From assembly GCA_038064735.1 (NCBI GenBank), contig JBBTSI010000003.1:21154-85153 (forward strand): a DNA stretch of 64,000 nt, read 5' to 3'. This document shows, in pieces, positions 5,021 to 49,611 of the stretch (its first letter is position 1; every line of letters begins with the position of its first letter). Origin of the DNA: Patescibacteria group bacterium (GTDB lineage: Bacteria > Patescibacteriota > Minisyncoccia > Phycocordibacterales > WO2-35-19). The notes under the pieces were generated by a model. That model was not told the origin of the DNA and ran no database searches. It was given only the letters and a program-made list of their open reading frames with translations. The position numbers and the translations under genes were made by a program.

Positions 5021-5024
5021 TTTG

Positions 5025-5105
5025 TGCTGGGGAGAGGACTTGAACCTCCACTCCTTACGGAACTGGTTCCTAAAACCAGCGCGGCTACCATTACGCCACC
5101 CCAGC
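5025..5105 (-). tRNA. tRNA-Leu(UAG), type II with long variable arm
   Basis: Hand-folded cloverleaf: acceptor GCUGGGG/CCCCAGC, anticodon loop UUUAGGA, T-loop UUCAAGU. Confidence 0.75.
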
Positions 5106-5277
5106 AATTTTTTGTCGTCACAAATATTTTTTAATGCTTGTCGTCACAGATAATCTCATTTTCGTCAAAATGAAATTTCCGCGACCCCGACTCGCTTATT
5201 TTTCTTGCTAGAAAAACATCGCTACGCCTCGGACTAGGAATAAAAAATCCAAAGCAGTTTGGATTCTTTATTCCTAG

Positions 5278-5350
5278 TCCGCCCACCAGGGATCGAACCT
5301 GGGACTTTCTCCTTAAGAGGGAGTTACTCTACCAGCTGAGTTATGGGCGG
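5278..5350 (-). tRNA. tRNA-Lys(CUU)
   Basis: Hand-folded: acceptor CCGCCCA/UGGGCGG, anticodon loop CUCUUAA, T-loop UUCGAUC. Confidence 0.65.
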
Positions 5351-6951: not shown

Positions 6952-7037
6952 TGGTGCTCGGGGCGAGACTTGAACTCGCAAGGCCTTGCGGCCAAAGGAT
7001 TTTAAGTCCTTCGTGTATACCATTCCACCACCCGAGC
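6952..7037 (-). tRNA. tRNA-Leu(UAA), CCA encoded
   Basis: Perfect cloverleaf: acceptor GCUCGGG/CCCGAGC, anticodon loop CUUAAAA, variable arm GGCCGCAAGGCC, 3' ACCA in the DNA. Confidence 0.8.
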
Positions 7038-7128
7038 AGTGATTTGTCAAGTCTATAAAATTTCTCAACAAATGAGGCCACGGTGAGAATCGCACTCACG
7101 CATATTCCTTTTGCAGAGGAACGCCTTG

Positions 7129-7863
7129 CTACTTGGCTACGTGGCCTTTATGAAAATCTATGATTTTCTTTACTGTTTTATCAATGTTTACTGGTCTGGC
7201 TTCAAAGTAATCATTGAACGTTTTGTATTTTCTCATAAAAAAAGTATTATGACTAGCTCTTTTGTACATTAGTTTGAATAGCTTTATAGAATCTTTATTA
7301 TTGAATATGAGCTGAAATGACCTGTTGCTTTTATAAATTCTCCCATTTTCAATCTTTTCGTTTGCCAATACAGTGTTCATTTTTTCCAAAAATATCTTAC
7401 TCCCGCTTGTAAAAAATGTTCTAATTCTTTTTATGATTATTTTACCAGTGTCGCTTATCGACTTTTCAAAATAAATACAACCATCACCATCAAAATATCC
7501 TCTTATAAAATGATTTAAATATTTGTTTGGAATATTAGGAAACTGCACAGTTAGAGATTTATTTGGATATAAACCATGTTTAATAAGATCATTATAAATT
7601 TTATGATTACCGATTTTCAATGTATAGAAAGTTTTACCCTTTAAGAATAACGATTTATTTTTGGTTATGTTGTGTTCCGAACCCATCATTTTTTTGATTC
7701 GTTCTGGAGAATCTTTGTCTGTACTTGTGATAGATAAATATAAAGCTCTAATATAGTCGCAATTTATTAATGTGCCGTCAGCATATACATAACCTAGTAC
7801 ATAGGCCATATTTGGAGACCATTTATTAAAAAAATTTTCGTTTAATTTATGTTTTATACCCAC
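7129..7863 (-). CDS. LAGLIDADG homing endonuclease, double-motif
   Basis: Two dodecapeptide motifs [11 protein letters not shown] and [12 protein letters not shown]; free-standing, 91 nt upstream of and co-oriented with tRNA-Leu(UAA). Confidence 0.7.
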
Positions 7864-15987: not shown

Positions 15988-16070
15988 GCGTCGGTGGTAG
16001 AGTGGTCAATTACAACAGACTGTAAATCTGTCGGCTTCGGCCTACGCAGGTTCGAATCCTGCCCGGCGCA
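15988..16070 (+). tRNA. tRNA-Tyr(GUA), type II
   Basis: Acceptor GCGUCGG/CCGGCGC, anticodon loop CUGUAAA, long variable arm, T-loop UUCGAAU. Confidence 0.75.
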
Positions 16071-16084
16071 CAAAATAAAAAAGC

Positions 16085-21942: not shown

Positions 21943-22014
21943 GGGCTTATAGTTTCAATGGTAAAACATTCCTCTCCAAAAGGAAGGTTCCCCGTTCGAG
22001 TCGGGGTGAGCCCG
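21943..22014 (+). tRNA. tRNA-Trp(CCA)
   Basis: Acceptor GGGCUUA/UGAGCCC, D-stem GUUU/AAAC, anticodon loop CUCCAAA, T-arm CCCCG-UUCGAGU-CGGGG. Confidence 0.75.
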
Positions 22015-22076
22015 CAAATATATAAATAGAAAGGGCTCTGTTTTTTAAACAAAGCCCTTTACAAAACAAACCATCT

Positions 22077-23429: not shown

Positions 23430-23510
23430 GTGCCGGGGAGAGGACTTGAACCTCCAAGCCTTGCGGCGCACGATTTTGAGTCGTGTGCGGTTACCATTTC
23501 GCCACCCCGG
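23430..23510 (-). tRNA. tRNA-Leu(CAA), type II
   Basis: Acceptor GCCGGGG/CCCCGGC, anticodon loop CUCAAAA, long variable arm, T-loop UUCAAGU. Confidence 0.75.
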
Positions 23511-23600
23511 CATTTCGAAAATATACCTATCAAATATAGCGCAAATATCCCCTAAAATCAAAACTTTGAACTTTTGTTTTTGTCTTTTGTGATGTAAAAT

Positions 23601-48598: not shown

Positions 48599-48851
48599 AT
48601 AAAAATTATACCACACAACTTTGCTCCACTTGGTAGAGGATGTTATTGTATCCCGCCGTAGCTCTATAAGAGCGAAGGAGGAGAAATTGTTTTGAAAATT
48701 TTAAATAAAAAGCCACCGCTTGGTCGGTGGCATCGCAAATTGGTTATTGGGAGAAATGAATAAAAAAGAAAGGATATTTTTACATAATCAAGAACGGCTC
48801 AACGATATTTATCGTTGAGCCGTTCCACATGTTTACCAAATAATCACTAAG

Positions 48852-49158
48852 CTCCGCGGGTTGGATTCGAACCAACGACCAATCGCTTACATAGAATCTC
48901 CTATTACTAGAAGTATGGACTATATCATCCCCATGTCTTTTGATTTAGGGGCGAGGGGCTTCGAACGTGAAATAAACACGTCCTACTCCATAAAGGATAG
49001 TCTCTACACCTTCCCTGACTTTTGTCTGGGCTTGGCTCGGGATTGCCCGCTTTTTAAAGCTTGGGTTTCCCCGAATTCACCTCGTTTTTCATCCAAAATT
49101 TCTTTTGGAAGCTGCATTATAAATACAGGCGACTGCGCTACCGCTGCGCCACCGCGGA
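48852..49158 (-). tRNA. tRNA-Asn(GUU) interrupted by a 235-nt group I intron in the anticodon loop
   Basis: Exons: 5' UCCGCGGUGGCGCAGCGGUAGCGCAGUCGCCUGU (49158..49125), 3' UAAGCGAUUGGUCGUUGGUUCGAAUCCAACCCGCGGAG (48889..48852). Spliced anticodon loop CUGUUAA, U1-A72 and G73 as in E. coli tRNA-Asn. Confidence 0.7.
48890..49124 (-). mobile_element. group I intron, subgroup IC3-like (Azoarcus/Anabaena tRNA-intron type)
   Basis: P7 strands AGACUA / UAGUC; near-identical matches to the Azoarcus core: CGAGCCAAGC, GAAGGUGUAGAGACUA, GUGAAUUCGGGGAAACC. 5' splice site after U (U.G with IGS GCAG); last intron nt G. Confidence 0.75.
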
Positions 49159-49167
49159 GCTTAATGA

Positions 49168-49461
49168 TTATTTATTTTTCAAGTTACAAATCTCTTTCGG
49201 GATTTTTGTGATCTCATCATGGACTTCCATATGACAATTCGCACAAAGCAACACACATTTGTCTATTTCTTTGCGAAGCCTTTCCCACGAACGTGTTAAA
49301 CCCTTAGAAGACATATCGAAGTCTTTGTTTTTAGGATTTACATGGTGGAAACTCAATGCTCGTGAGCATTTATTGTAACCACATATCGCGCATTTGTTGC
49401 CTTTATAAGATCTAGCCATTTCACGCAGTTTTATTCTTCTGCGTTTAACAGCCATAACCAT
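49168..49461 (-). CDS. HNH endonuclease
   Basis: CAICGY...HHVNP...CANCHMEVH (HNH zinc-finger nuclease motif); stop codon 9 nt upstream of the intron-bearing tRNA-Asn; start uncertain (49461 or upstream 49548). Confidence 0.65.
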   Translation of the reverse strand: MVMAVKRRRIKLREMARSYKGNKCAICGYNKCSRALSFHHVNPKNKDFDMSSKGLTRSWERLRKEIDKCVLLCANCHMEVHDEITKIPKEICNLKNK

Positions 49462-49611
49462 ATACTTTGCTCGATCGGCATAAGTCCTTGTCTCTTTTCT
49501 TATTTTGGTATACACAACATAAGTATACCACATAAATTTAAAGAACATTGCTATTGTAGCAAAAATCTATACGGTTGCAATAACGAAAATATATTTGGTA
49601 TACTTATATGT

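What the first reader, a model, noticed from the sequence alone, without database searches (positions are those of the whole stretch)
48841..49170. Group I (IC3-like) intron in tRNA-Asn(GUU) with an extended inverted-repeat pre-tRNA stem
The tRNA halves lie 235 nt apart. The intervening sequence carries P7 strands (AGACUA/UAGUC) and long exact matches to the Azoarcus/Anabaena tRNA intron core (CGAGCCAAGC; GAAGGUGUAGAGACUA; GUGAAUUCGGGGAAACC). Splicing after U35 (U.G pair with IGS GCAG) and after the terminal G rebuilds the anticodon loop CUGUUAA of tRNA-Asn. The 19 nt flanking the gene, taatcactaagctccgcgg / ccgcggagcttaatgatta, form an inverted repeat that extends the acceptor stem. tRNA-Leu(UAA), tRNA-fMet, tRNA-Ile and tRNA-Arg are the usual hosts, so Asn would be an uncommon one.
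Basis: partly seen in the sequence, partly recalled or inferred. Interest (0 to 1): 0.65.

Follow-up and report, generated by a model that had tools for sequence, protein, structure and literature searches.

The report
Intron-split tRNA-Asn inside a conserved helix
A bacterial asparagine tRNA gene is interrupted by a self-splicing group I intron, which is a known class, but it is also enclosed by a conserved 23-base-pair helix formed by its flanks and sits beside a homing-endonuclease gene that is normally inside the intron; both features appear to be undescribed.

Summary
On the minus strand, a canonical tRNA-Asn(GUU) gene is split between positions 35 and 36 by a 235-nt group I intron (Rfam RF00028, 67 bits, gathering score 50). 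The gene content and relatives indicate a Patescibacteria-type chromosome.

This intron class is already published: a 2020 tFind preprint catalogued it, and Nakagawa et al. (mSystems 2026) showed in vitro splicing. So "uncommon host" is out of date. The "IC3-like" label is not supported. The intron has P7.1/P7.2 hairpins, and the published classification of this class is IA.

The flanking inverted repeat is real and longer than reported: 16 bp beyond the acceptor stem, 23 bp in total.

New here: this leader-trailer helix recurs in about 10% of intron-bearing tRNA-Asn genes. It covaries strongly across 57 loci (covariation 0.592 against 0.170 in shuffles). It ends sharply at 14-15 bp, and ordinary tRNAs lack it.

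The upstream HNH gene is homologous to HNH genes that lie inside the P1 loop of related introns. HNH genes lying outside the intron are enriched in helix-bearing loci.

I infer an rRNA-like processing and clamp stem that blocks RNase P until a dsRNA nuclease such as RNase III cuts it. That step is untested.

The parts
49168..49548 (-). HNH homing-endonuclease gene (126 aa) lying outside the intron. Its stop codon TAA (49170..49168) lies inside the 5' strand of the helix.
   Evidence: Pfam HNH PF01844, 22.1 bits against a cutoff of 21.4. PHROG HNH endonuclease families, down to E 4.7e-28. All motif residues are intact, and it is homologous (E 4e-51) to ORFs inside tRNA-Asn introns of other loci.
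49159..49174 (-). 5' leader strand of the leader-trailer helix (positions -1 to -16: UAAAUAAUCAUUAAGC).
   Evidence: Pairs with 48852..48837. The helix covaries across 57 loci. It is 88-94% identical in the orthologous loci L133 and L188.
49125..49158 (-). tRNA-Asn 5' exon (positions 1-35, ending CUGU).
   Evidence: ARAGORN calls the spliced product tRNA-Asn(gtt).
48890..49124 (-). Group I intron, 235 nt, with P1-P9 plus P7.1/P7.2, a GAAA loop on P2, a GUAA loop on P9, and a terminal G at 48890.
   Evidence: RF00028, 67 bits. Every helix was verified as canonical pairs.
48961..48997 (-). 37-nt insert between the P7 5' strand and P3', forming P7.1 (3 bp) and P7.2 (7 bp).
   Evidence: It appears as an insertion relative to the Rfam model. 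It folds into two hairpins, dG -11.1 kcal/mol. The long P7-to-J8/7 spacing is typical of the tRNA-Asn intron family: median 70 nt, against 37 nt in tRNA-Asp introns.
48852..48889 (-). tRNA-Asn 3' exon (positions 36-73; UAA..., T arm, acceptor 3' strand, G73). No CCA is encoded.
48837..48852 (-). 3' strand of the helix: G73 plus a 15-nt trailer (GCUUAGUGAUUAUUUG).
48791..48826 (-). Strong hairpin (16-bp stem) 10 nt after the helix, followed by UUGAUUAU. Possibly the terminator of the HNH-tRNA transcript.
   Evidence: RNAfold gives -27 to -28.7 kcal/mol, and the hairpin is conserved in orthologue L133. The consensus terminator scan did not call it.
49553..49580 (-). Promoter-like site (TTGCAA, 16-nt spacer, TACAAT, with TG) just upstream of the HNH ORF. 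No promoter-like site lies between HNH and the tRNA.
   Evidence: Consensus scan only. The number of sites is no greater than in shuffles, so this is weak evidence.

Best explanation
**Shown.** This is a tRNA-Asn(GUU) gene of a Patescibacteria-type bacterium, and no second copy is detected in the window. It is interrupted between nucleotides 35 and 36 by an ORF-less self-splicing group I intron of the IA-like type (with P7.1/P7.2). This class is already described for Patescibacteria. The gene is enclosed by a leader-trailer helix. Sixteen leader nucleotides pair with G73 and the following 15 trailer nucleotides, stacking on the acceptor stem to give 23 bp. The helix is conserved by compensatory change in a subclass of these genes. 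Immediately upstream lies an intact HNH homing-endonuclease gene, with its stop codon inside the helix. In relatives the homologous gene sits in the intron's P1 loop.

**Inferred mechanism.**
1. HNH and the tRNA are transcribed together.
2. The intron folds and splices using exogenous G, the U35.G pair in P1, and the terminal G.
3. The helix forms when the trailer is transcribed. It clamps the two exon halves, which lie 235-600 nt apart, and buries the RNase P site (-1/+1) and the 3' processing site (after G73) in continuous duplex. Direct end-processing is therefore disfavoured.
4. A dsRNA endonuclease, most likely RNase III, cuts the roughly two-turn helix. This frees the pre-tRNA from the HNH mRNA.
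5. RNase P, 3' trimming and CCA addition then finish the tRNA.

This is how rRNA leader-trailer stems work. The HNH gene outside the intron probably still targets intron-less tRNA-Asn alleles. If so, it would be carried along with the intron by co-conversion (collaborative homing).
For: **Intron and tRNA**
- RF00028 at 67 bits.
- Spliced product is tRNA-Asn.
- All core helices are canonical.
- The class is published, with in vitro splicing of two members (PMC13011429).

**The helix is a selected structure**
- Alignment A2 holds 57 loci chosen only for G-2 C-1.
- 87.3% of cells are paired, against 63.3 +/- 1.0 in shuffles (0 of 500 reach it).
- Covariation is 0.592, against 0.170 +/- 0.012 in shuffles; slid registers give at most 0.149.
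- 14 of 16 extension pairs change on both sides.
- Pairing is 0.80-0.98 at positions 4-14 and drops to background by positions 16-17.
- G.U outnumbers A.C by 41 to 16, consistent with selection on the tRNA-sense RNA.
- A syntenic sublineage of 10 loci shows clean compensatory changes.
- In the orthologues L133 and L188 the helix strands are 88-94% identical, while the intron is 44-48% and the HNH gene 56-58% identical.

**Specificity**
- 49 ordinary tRNAs pair at 5.1 +/- 1.8 of 13 positions, against 10.8 in the helix class.

**Block to RNase P**
- Stem-less relatives carry A-2 U-1 in 60 of 84 loci. That is the optimal leader for E. coli RNase P.
- Helix loci carry paired G-2 C-1.
- Two or more leader/3'-end pairs extending the acceptor stem already lower kcat/Km of E. 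coli RNase P (PMC9433436).

**RNase III availability**
- CPR bacteria are reported to retain rnc (PMC12641178).

**HNH**
- Homology and the permuted gene order relative to L110 are shown.
- HNH outside the intron occurs in 15 of 48 helix loci, against 1 of 68 stem-less loci (p = 4e-6).
Against: - There is no expression or cleavage data. RNase III cleavage, co-transcription and the order of events are all inferred.
- No RNase III signature was found within the 64-kb window, though this says little about the whole genome.
- About 90% of intron-bearing tRNA-Asn genes lack the helix. The two introns shown to splice in vitro were transcribed without flanks. So the helix is not needed for catalysis in general.
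- Four loci have the neighbouring HNH on the opposite strand. Co-transcription therefore cannot be the general reason for the helix.
- About half of helix loci have no HNH at all.
- The helix class is not a clean clade in intron-core clustering.
- The metagenome sample was pre-selected for G-2 C-1, which fixes 2 of the 16 pairs.
- The depletion of encoded CCA could be a lineage effect: 6 of the 7 other tRNAs in the window also lack CCA.
- One uninterrupted tRNA-Met (L132) has a 10-bp helix, so the element is not strictly tied to introns.
Confidence: 0.6

Rival explanations
1. The helix is purely an exon clamp or folding aid for splicing. It holds the short 5' exon and the 3' exon together across the long intron, so that P1 and P10 form and the 5' exon is not lost after the first step. 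It is later melted or degraded non-specifically, with no dedicated dsRNA cleavage.
For: - The helix encloses genes whose acceptor-stem strands lie 190-630 nt apart.
- It is essentially restricted to intron-bearing tRNA-Asn in my samples.
- From established knowledge, exon pairing in the anticodon stem is needed for splicing of the Anabaena pre-tRNA intron (Zaug et al. 1993; not re-read here).
Against: - About 90% of homologous introns manage without the helix.
- Flank-less constructs splice in vitro.
- A -36 kcal/mol duplex that buries both processing sites still has to be removed somehow (PMC9433436).
- The sharp, uniform end at 14-15 bp looks like a measured length and not a case of more pairing being better.
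- An intron-less tRNA-Met carries a similar helix.
Confidence: 0.2
2. The helix serves the neighbouring selfish gene, not the tRNA. It could act as a 3' or 5' structural cap that stabilises or insulates the endonuclease mRNA. It could also couple endonuclease translation to tRNA folding, because the stop codon lies within the helix.
For: - Endonuclease genes outside the intron are strongly enriched beside helix-bearing tRNAs: 15 of 48 against 1 of 68.
- In six loci and in the window, the HNH stop codon ends 9-13 nt before the tRNA, inside the 5' strand.
- TAA or TGA occurs at positions -12..-10 in 20 of 49 helix loci, against 8 of 68 stem-less loci.
Against: - 24 of 35 short-intron helix loci with at least 500 nt of flank on each side have no HNH.
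- In four loci the HNH is on the opposite strand.
- In ten loci the upstream ORF ends 22-38 nt away, outside the helix.
- The helix register is fixed to the tRNA ends, not to the ORF.
Confidence: 0.1
3. The repeat is a DNA-level feature. It could be the terminal inverted repeats or a recombination scar of a mobile tRNA/endonuclease cassette, or a by-product of homing repair, with no RNA function.
For: - The distribution across Patescibacteria is patchy, and helix loci are intermixed with stem-less loci in intron clusters.
- The helix is associated with homing-endonuclease genes.
- WIN and L133 share exons and flanks but have very different introns.
Against: - Protein-bound terminal repeats conserve sequence. 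Here the sequence varies freely while pairing is kept, with all four Watson-Crick pair types at most positions.
- G.U is tolerated far more than A.C on the tRNA-sense strand, 41 to 16.
- The repeat always abuts tRNA positions 1 and 73 exactly and has a uniform length.
- The arms are 300-700 bp apart, too far for DNA cruciform extrusion.
Confidence: 0.07
4. The locus is a decaying pseudogene, and a separate intron-less tRNA-Asn elsewhere in the genome does the work. The flank pairing would then be coincidental.
For: - Only 64 kb of the genome is visible.
- Decayed relatives exist, for example L132 with a 55-nt insert and several broken HNH copies.
Against: - The cloverleaf is perfect, with G73 and the GUU anticodon.
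- The ribozyme core is intact with all pairings.
- There is no other tRNA-Asn in the window, and none near any of the related loci.
- The published survey found that intron-bearing and intron-less copies with the same anticodon rarely coexist in one genome (PMC13011429).
- The helix statistics exclude coincidence.
Confidence: 0.03

Closest known systems
[quoted passage not shown]
   Same: Same host tRNA and same insertion site. The same U(-1) and terminal G. The same P7.1-containing IA-type architecture and the same associated HNH (PF01844) endonuclease family. The host is Patescibacteria-type.
   Different: In the published cases the HNH gene is inside the intron (4 introns). Here it lies outside the tRNA, 9 nt upstream. 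The paper does not mention any flanking or acceptor-extending helix, and its splicing constructs began at tRNA nucleotide 1. This exact locus was not found in the held part of its tables.
Azoarcus tRNA-Ile and cyanobacterial tRNA-Leu IC3 introns
   Same: A small bacterial tRNA anticodon-loop ribozyme. Core strings are near-identical around P6 and P7 (from my memory of the Azoarcus sequence). GNRA tetraloops sit on P2 and P9.
   Different: A different host tRNA and a different insertion site (35/36). There is an extra P7.1/P7.2 insert of 37 nt. The published subgroup assignment for this class is IA. No leader-trailer helix is known to me for those genes.
Leader-trailer (processing) helices of bacterial rRNA operons, cut by RNase III
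   Same: Long-range pairing of the 5' leader with the 3' trailer encloses a large structured RNA. The duplex is about two helical turns. It is conserved by covariation and not by sequence. It buries the mature ends.
   Different: It encloses a tRNA and not 16S or 23S rRNA. It stacks directly on the acceptor stem. Cleavage by RNase III is not shown here.
Free-standing homing endonucleases acting with ORF-less introns (collaborative homing; T4 mobE next to the nrdB intron, PMC2790892; review PMC3984707)
   Same: [quoted passage not shown] Homologous endonucleases are intron-encoded elsewhere.
   Different: The host is a cellular tRNA gene of a bacterium and not a phage protein gene. The endonuclease occupies at least four positions among relatives: P1 loop, upstream on the same strand, upstream on the opposite strand, and downstream. 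Target-site specificity is untested.
Leader/3'-end pairing as an RNase P anti-determinant in E. coli pre-tRNAs (PMC9433436)
   Same: Pairing of leader nucleotides with the 3' end extends the acceptor stem and must be unwound before cleavage.
   Different: In E. coli this involves 2-3 pairs with RCCA. Here it is a continuous 15-16 bp extension and no CCA is encoded.

Membership tests
Group I intron (Rfam RF00028) | Covariance-model score at or above the curated gathering score | tested here: met
   67.0 bits against 50, E 8e-15, full-length model match 1-253.
Group I intron (Rfam RF00028) | [quoted passage not shown] | tested here: met
   Exon CUGU pairs with intron G10 C11 A12 G13. The intron ends ...CUAUG.
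Group I intron (Rfam RF00028) | Conserved core helices P3-P9, including P7 with a bulged A and the G-binding G-C pair | tested here: met
   All helices were listed as canonical pairs: P7 G121-C208, bulged A122, then G123-A127 with U203-C207.
Group I intron (Rfam RF00028) | Self-splicing activity | not testable with these tools
   Shown in vitro for two other members of the class (PMC13011429), not for this locus.
   A 37-nt insert at that position folds into hairpins of 3 bp and 7 bp.
   Subgroup models are not in Rfam. The published result for the class is that 25 of 28 introns at 35/36 are IA and no Patescibacteria tRNA intron is IC.
Subgroup IA | P7.1/P7.2 peripheral hairpins between P7 and P3' | tested here: met
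   The P7-to-J8/7 spacing has a median of 70 nt across 68 tRNA-Asn introns. The authors also draw a P7.1 helix.
Patescibacteria tRNA 35/36 intron class | Insertion between nucleotides 35 and 36 of tRNA-Asn(GUU), restoring CUGUUAA | tested here: met
   (ARAGORN on the spliced sequence).
Patescibacteria tRNA 35/36 intron class | Host is a member of Patescibacteria | tested here: inconclusive
   No rRNA or taxonomy label is available. The gene content and the best protein matches (MreB 75-77%, PriA 40%, NifS 70%) are to Patescibacteria MAG loci.
Functional bacterial tRNA gene | Canonical cloverleaf: 7-bp acceptor stem, D arm, anticodon arm, T arm with a GTTCGAATC loop, and discriminator G73 | tested here: met
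   ARAGORN structure of the spliced sequence. CCA is not encoded, as for 6 of the 7 other tRNAs in the window.
rRNA-type leader-trailer processing stem (RNase III substrate) | Leader and trailer pair to enclose the mature RNA, and the pairing is maintained by covariation | tested here: met
   covariation 0.592 against 0.170, with 14 of 16 pairs changing on both sides.
rRNA-type leader-trailer processing stem (RNase III substrate) | Continuous duplex of about two helical turns (at least 20 bp) | tested here: met
   23 bp in the window. The family consensus is 7 + 14-15 bp.
rRNA-type leader-trailer processing stem (RNase III substrate) | Cleavage by RNase III in vivo or in vitro | not testable with these tools
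   No rnc signature in the 64-kb window. CPR bacteria are reported to retain rnc (PMC12641178).
HNH homing endonuclease | HNH catalytic motif with zinc-binding CxxC pairs | tested here: met
   PF01844, 22.1 bits against a cutoff of 21.4. PHROG HNH families, E 4.7e-28. Motif residues are aligned and intact.
HNH homing endonuclease | Site-specific cleavage of the intron-less or endonuclease-less allele, and gene conversion | not testable with these tools
   Inferred only from homology to intron-encoded copies.

The most novel reading that the evidence does not exclude
A subset of Patescibacteria matures its intron-containing tRNA-Asn by an rRNA-like route. A conserved leader-trailer helix of about 22 bp makes the precursor refractory to RNase P and RNase Z. 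A dsRNA endonuclease (RNase III) must then act first, possibly enforcing splicing before end-processing. The same helix-flanked tRNA locus also acts as a landing pad where a homing-endonuclease gene hops between the intron's P1 loop and either flank. This would give natural intermediates of the "endonuclease invades intron" pathway in a cellular tRNA gene.
Probability: 0.3. Interest if true: 0.7.

Novelty: new variant of a known kind. Interest (0 to 1): 0.55.

Why it matters
The intron itself adds only one more member to a class published in 2020-2026.

The leader-trailer helix would matter for three reasons.

1. As far as my literature searches show, it would be the first conserved rRNA-style processing stem around a bacterial tRNA. 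It would imply a tRNA maturation route in which RNase P cannot act first. That is directly testable with flanked and unflanked transcripts, using RNase III and RNase P.
2. The published splicing assays of this intron class left out the flanks. Any effect of the helix on splicing or on the order of events is therefore unexplored.
3. The same endonuclease family occurs inside the intron, upstream and downstream of the tRNA. This gives a rare natural series for studying how free-standing endonucleases and ORF-less introns become composite mobile elements.

There is also a practical point. These genes are missed or mis-called by tRNA finders, which affects completeness estimates for CPR genomes.

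Tried and rejected
- **Phage origin.** A distant blastn of the locus against 50,697 phage records gave only 20-25% coverage hits to intron-core-like, unannotated stretches in Klebsiella jumbo phages and one Rhizobium phage. The window's genes are cellular.
- **Helix as a general tRNA feature of this genome or lineage.** Rejected: no more than 1 bp in the correct register in the window's other 7 tRNAs, and 48 of 49 ordinary tRNAs on related contigs and this window show none.
- **Helix class as a single clade.** Intron-core clustering mixes helix-bearing and stem-less loci. The alignment is crude, so this is not decisive either way.
- **Helix as an intrinsic terminator.** The arms are at least 300 nt apart and there is no consistent U-tract. 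The scan's only terminator-like hit inside the tRNA is an artefact of the D and anticodon arms.
- **Exon or intron relics upstream of the window's HNH gene**, as a trace of a duplication. blastn against L110, L012, L034 and L037 found none.
- **My guess that the conserved 225-aa neighbour in ten helix loci is a LAGLIDADG endonuclease.** Pfam, PHROGs and PDB profile searches recognise only its N-terminal HTH.
- **RNase III signature motif in the window.** None found; uninformative for a 64-kb slice.
- **Ungapped codon comparison of the HNH orthologues.** It failed because of indels, and I ignored it.
- **Window sequence in the paper's supplementary tables.** No match in the held, truncated text.
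- **Not carried out.** I did not build a covariance model for the whole precursor, because about 340 columns would probably exceed the calibration limit.
Full report
**1. What is in the sequence**

The feature lies on the minus strand. Rfam's group I intron model matches 49134..48897 at 67.0 bits (gathering score 50, E 8e-15) over the full model.

Reading the minus strand and parsing it gives three pieces:
- a 34-nt 5' exon, 49158..49125 (UCCGCGG UG GCGC AGCGGUA GCGC A GUCGC CUGU);
- a 235-nt intron, 49124..48890, ending in G;
- a 38-nt 3' exon, 48889..48852 (UAA GCGAU UGGUC GUUGG UUCGAAU CCAAC CCGCGGA G).

Joining the exons gives a sequence that ARAGORN calls tRNA-Asn(gtt), with a perfect cloverleaf and discriminator G73. 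ARAGORN's standard run on the unspliced window finds seven other tRNAs and no tRNA-Asn. CCA is not encoded; the same is true of six of the seven other tRNAs in the window.

P1 pairs exon C32-U33-G34-U35 with intron G13-A12-C11-G10, with the U35.G10 wobble at the splice site.

All core helices are canonical pairs:
- P2, 7 bp with a GAAA loop;
- P3, P4, P5, P6 and P6a;
- P7, with bulged A122 and the G123-C207 pair;
- P8;
- P9, 6 bp with a GUAA loop.

**2. Genomic setting**

The window encodes housekeeping genes of a cell: 2-oxoacid:ferredoxin oxidoreductase, ADP-forming acetyl-CoA synthetase, NifS/NifU, Fmt, Def, PriA and MreB. GC content is about 37%. The best protein matches among the fetched named loci are Patescibacteria MAGs. 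The locus has no substantial match in phage genomes. I treat the host as a Patescibacterium (CPR), inferred from similarity and not from a marker gene.

**3. The intron class is already known**

[quoted passage not shown] The paper reports the following:
- Group I introns sit at position 35/36 of tRNA-Asn(GUU) (15 genes) and tRNA-Asp(GUC) in complete Patescibacteria genomes.
- Two of them self-splice precisely in vitro.
- 25 of 28 introns at position 35/36 are subgroup IA, and no Patescibacteria tRNA intron is IC.
- Four tRNA-Asn introns carry HNH (PF01844) endonuclease genes.

According to that paper, the intron type was first catalogued by the 2020 tFind preprint.

My own scan of species-representative genomes used the conserved J8/7-P7 core, the G|UAA junction and the T-loop. 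Of those loci, 83 parse as tRNA-Asn (68) or tRNA-Asp (15) interrupted at 35/36, mostly in Patescibacteria MAGs.

The "IC3-like" label is not supported either. The Rfam alignment shows a 37-nt insertion between the P7 5' strand and P3'. This insertion folds into two hairpins, P7.1 (3 bp) and P7.2 (7 bp), with dG -11.1 kcal/mol. Hairpins at that position are the feature that defines IA (classification criteria as summarised in PMC3984707). The long P7-to-J8/7 spacing is typical of the Asn family: median 70 nt, against 37 nt in Asp introns.

The core strings and the L2 and L9 tetraloops do resemble Azoarcus. I can say that only from memory of the Azoarcus sequence. Only 18% of family members share those strings.

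**4. The flanking helix: real, longer than reported, and conserved by covariation**

In the window, leader positions -1 to -16 (49159..49174) pair with G73 and the following 15 trailer nucleotides (48852..48837). There are 14 Watson-Crick and 2 G.U pairs, stacked on the 7-bp acceptor stem. The total is 23 bp, with duplex dG -36.1 kcal/mol. In the correct register, none of the other seven tRNAs in the window extends by more than 1 bp.

*Frequency in the species sample.* This sample was unbiased with respect to the flanks.
- Six of 62 intron-bearing tRNA-Asn genes pair at 10 or more of the 13 scored positions. These are the window, L034, L037, L051 and L109, plus L090 as a borderline case.
- None of the 15 tRNA-Asp genes does.
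- The stem-less majority averages 4.5 +/- 1.5 paired positions.
- The stem-less majority has A-2 U-1 in 60 of 84 loci.

*A larger sample.* I used the one metagenome scan on interrupted tRNA-Asn 5' halves preceded by G-2 C-1. This fixes only the first two pairs of any extension. Of 56 distinct parsed loci, 48 pair at 10 or more of 13 positions, and their stem sequences are very different from one another.

*Formal test.* On a gap-free alignment of these loci plus the window (A2, 57 sequences), the count of structure pairs gives:

| Measure | Observed | Shuffled | Slid registers |
|---|---|---|---|
| Cells paired | 87.3% | 63.3 +/- 1.0% (0 of 500 reach it) | 38-45% |
| Covariation score | 0.592 | 0.170 +/- 0.012 (0 of 500 reach it) | at most 0.149 |

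Fourteen of the 16 extension pairs change on both sides.

*Other properties of the helix.*
- Pairing is 0.80-0.98 at positions 4-14, 0.57 at position 15, and at background from positions 16-17. The helix therefore has a defined length of about 21-22 bp including the acceptor stem.
- G.U exceeds A.C by 41 to 16 outside two special columns, as expected for selection on the tRNA-sense RNA.
- Recurrent details: Y-6 pairs with G78 (U.G in 27 loci, C-G in 18), U-5 pairs with A77 in 41 of 57 loci, and position 3 is weak, with 35% of loci unpaired there.
- Ten loci share the same upstream gene and so form a syntenic lineage. They show clean compensatory exchanges at positions 4-12.
- The loci L133 and L188 are orthologous to the window locus; their neighbours are 61-76% identical at the protein level. 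In these loci the two helix strands are 88-94% identical. The intron is only 44-48% identical, and the HNH gene 56-58%.
- Forty-nine ordinary tRNAs on the same contigs and in the window average 5.1 +/- 1.8 paired positions. The single exception is a tRNA-Met in L132.
- Encoded CCA is nearly absent in the helix class: 2 of 54, against 26 of 68 (p = 2.6e-6). This could partly be a lineage effect.

*Prior description.* The mSystems paper contains no occurrence of "acceptor", "inverted repeat", "leader" or "RNase P". Its splicing templates began at tRNA nucleotide 1. Two further full-text searches found no description of such a helix around bacterial tRNAs.

**5. The neighbouring HNH gene**

The ORF 49548..49168 (126 aa) ends with its TAA inside the leader strand. 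It matches Pfam HNH (22.1 bits, cutoff 21.4) and PHROG HNH-endonuclease families (E 4.7e-28). All motif residues are present.

It is homologous, down to E 4e-51, to ORFs that lie inside the tRNA-Asn introns of about 18 species-sample loci.

Nucleotide comparison with the closest of these (L110) shows the same three blocks in a different order:
- L110: 5' exon, then HNH in the P1 loop, then IGS-core-3' exon.
- Window: HNH, then 5' exon, then a minimal P1 loop followed by IGS-core-3' exon.

Several intronic copies are decayed: L037, L118, L006 and L064.

Among 65 parsed helix-class metagenome loci, the HNH position is as follows:
- intronic in 14;
- just upstream in 14, of which 10 are on the same strand (in six, the stop codon ends 9-13 nt before the tRNA, as in the window) and 4 are on the opposite strand;
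- downstream of, or overlapping, the tRNA's end in 3-4;
- absent from 24 of the 35 short-intron loci that have enough flanking sequence to judge.

An HNH gene outside the intron occurs in 15 of 48 helix loci, against 1 of 68 stem-less loci (p = 4e-6).

This layout matches the published concept of free-standing endonucleases that cooperate with ORF-less introns. Examples are collaborative homing, endonuclease-gene invasion, and T4 mobE (PMC3984707, PMC2790892). The cleavage specificity of this HNH is untested.

**6. How it most likely works**

*Shown:* the anatomy of the intron, the tRNA, the helix and the HNH gene; selection for pairing; specificity to this gene class.

*Inferred:*
- HNH and the tRNA are co-transcribed. 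The only promoter-like sites lie upstream of HNH. None lies between HNH and the tRNA, and the site count is no greater than in shuffles. A strong hairpin follows the trailer at 48826..48791 and is conserved in L133.
- The intron splices by the standard two-step mechanism.
- The helix can form only once the trailer has been transcribed. It then ties the exon halves together and buries the -1/+1 site and the site after G73 in continuous duplex.
- In E. coli, as few as two leader/3'-end pairs extending the acceptor stem lower RNase P efficiency, and A-2 U-1 is the optimal leader (PMC9433436). Stem-less relatives carry that optimal leader, and helix loci carry the opposite.
- A duplex of about two turns is the classic substrate length for RNase III (established knowledge). 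CPR genomes are reported to retain rnc (PMC12641178).

I therefore favour an rRNA-like processing and clamp stem that is cut by a dsRNA endonuclease before RNase P, 3' trimming and CCA addition.

My confidence, by level of claim:
- about 0.9 that the helix is a selected RNA structure;
- about 0.4-0.5 that RNase III is the enzyme;
- 0.6 for the package as worded in the best explanation.

The rivals are scored in their own section: a pure splicing clamp, a service to the endonuclease mRNA, DNA-level repeats, and a pseudogene.

**7. Caveats**

- No expression data exist for this locus.
- About 90% of related introns lack the helix.
- Flank-less constructs splice in vitro.
- Some neighbouring HNH genes are on the opposite strand.
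- The helix class is not a clean clade in a crude clustering.
- The metagenome sample is enriched by design.
- No rnc signature lies within the 64-kb window.
- One intron-less tRNA-Met also has a 10-bp helix.

**8. Verdict**

The intron-in-tRNA-Asn part is correct but already known, so this locus is a new member of a published class. The IC3 label should be replaced by IA-like. It is a conserved, covarying leader-trailer helix, coupled statistically with homing-endonuclease genes that sit outside the intron. I could find no earlier description of either feature.

Noticed in passing
L121, L144, L145, L161, L167, L177, L181, L200, L204, L223 (ORF ending 22-38 nt upstream of the tRNA-Asn; for example L144:4233-4913:+): Ten helix-bearing metagenome loci share a same-strand protein of about 225 aa immediately upstream of the tRNA. 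It has an N-terminal HTH plus an unassigned C-terminal domain of about 130 aa with the motif RDKFIAGVAMYFAEGDK...SFSNSDP. To my eye the motif resembles LAGLIDADG. Pfam, PHROGs and PDB profile searches recognise only the HTH. It may be a second endonuclease family beside these tRNAs.
   Followed up: partly
L132 (Ga0214206_1003601), minus strand, oriented positions about 419-800: A tRNA-Asn-like gene has only a 55-nt insert at 35/36 with no terminal G, which is too short for a group I intron. It still has 9 of 10 flank pairs. It is followed by an uninterrupted tRNA-Met(CAT) with its own 10-bp leader-trailer helix, and then tRNA-Gly.
   Followed up: partly
window 48890-49124 and 49168-49548, compared with L133 and L188: The window and L133 have identical tRNA exons, helix strands that are 88-94% identical, and a conserved downstream hairpin. 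Their introns are only 48% identical and differ in length (235 against 204 nt), and their HNH genes are 56% identical. This suggests replacement or very fast evolution of the intron and endonuclease within a conserved locus.
   Followed up: partly
window 48791-48826 (-): A very stable 16-bp hairpin (about -27 kcal/mol) lies 10 nt after the helix and is conserved in orthologue L133. The consensus terminator scan does not call it. A second terminator-like hairpin with a T-run lies at 48731..48712 (-).
   Followed up: partly
Klebsiella phages Muenster (MT708547.1:302879-302994), KP13-7, RCIP0023, phiKp_21; Rhizobium phage RHph_N3_13 (MN988507.1:37548-37632): Unannotated stretches in these phage genomes are 73-75% identical to the P3-P6 core of this intron. 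They are probably unannotated group I introns.
   Followed up: no
window tRNAs at 5024-5105, 5277-5350, 7074-7146, 15988-16071, 21943-22015, 23430-23511: Six of the seven ordinary tRNA genes in the window encode only C74 after the discriminator and no CCA. Only tRNA-Leu(UAA) at 6952-7037 encodes CCA. This organism must therefore rely on a CCA-adding enzyme.
   Followed up: no
tRNA-Asp(GUC) loci, for example L007, L021, L022, L032, L050: tRNA-Asp introns at 35/36 have a short P7-to-J8/7 spacing (median 37 nt), so they lack the P7.1/P7.2 insert that is typical of the tRNA-Asn introns. None of the 15 has a leader-trailer helix.
   Followed up: partly
window 48861-49211 (+): A 116-aa ORF on the plus strand overlaps the tRNA and intron on the opposite strand. 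It is a mechanical ORF and almost certainly not a gene.
   Followed up: no
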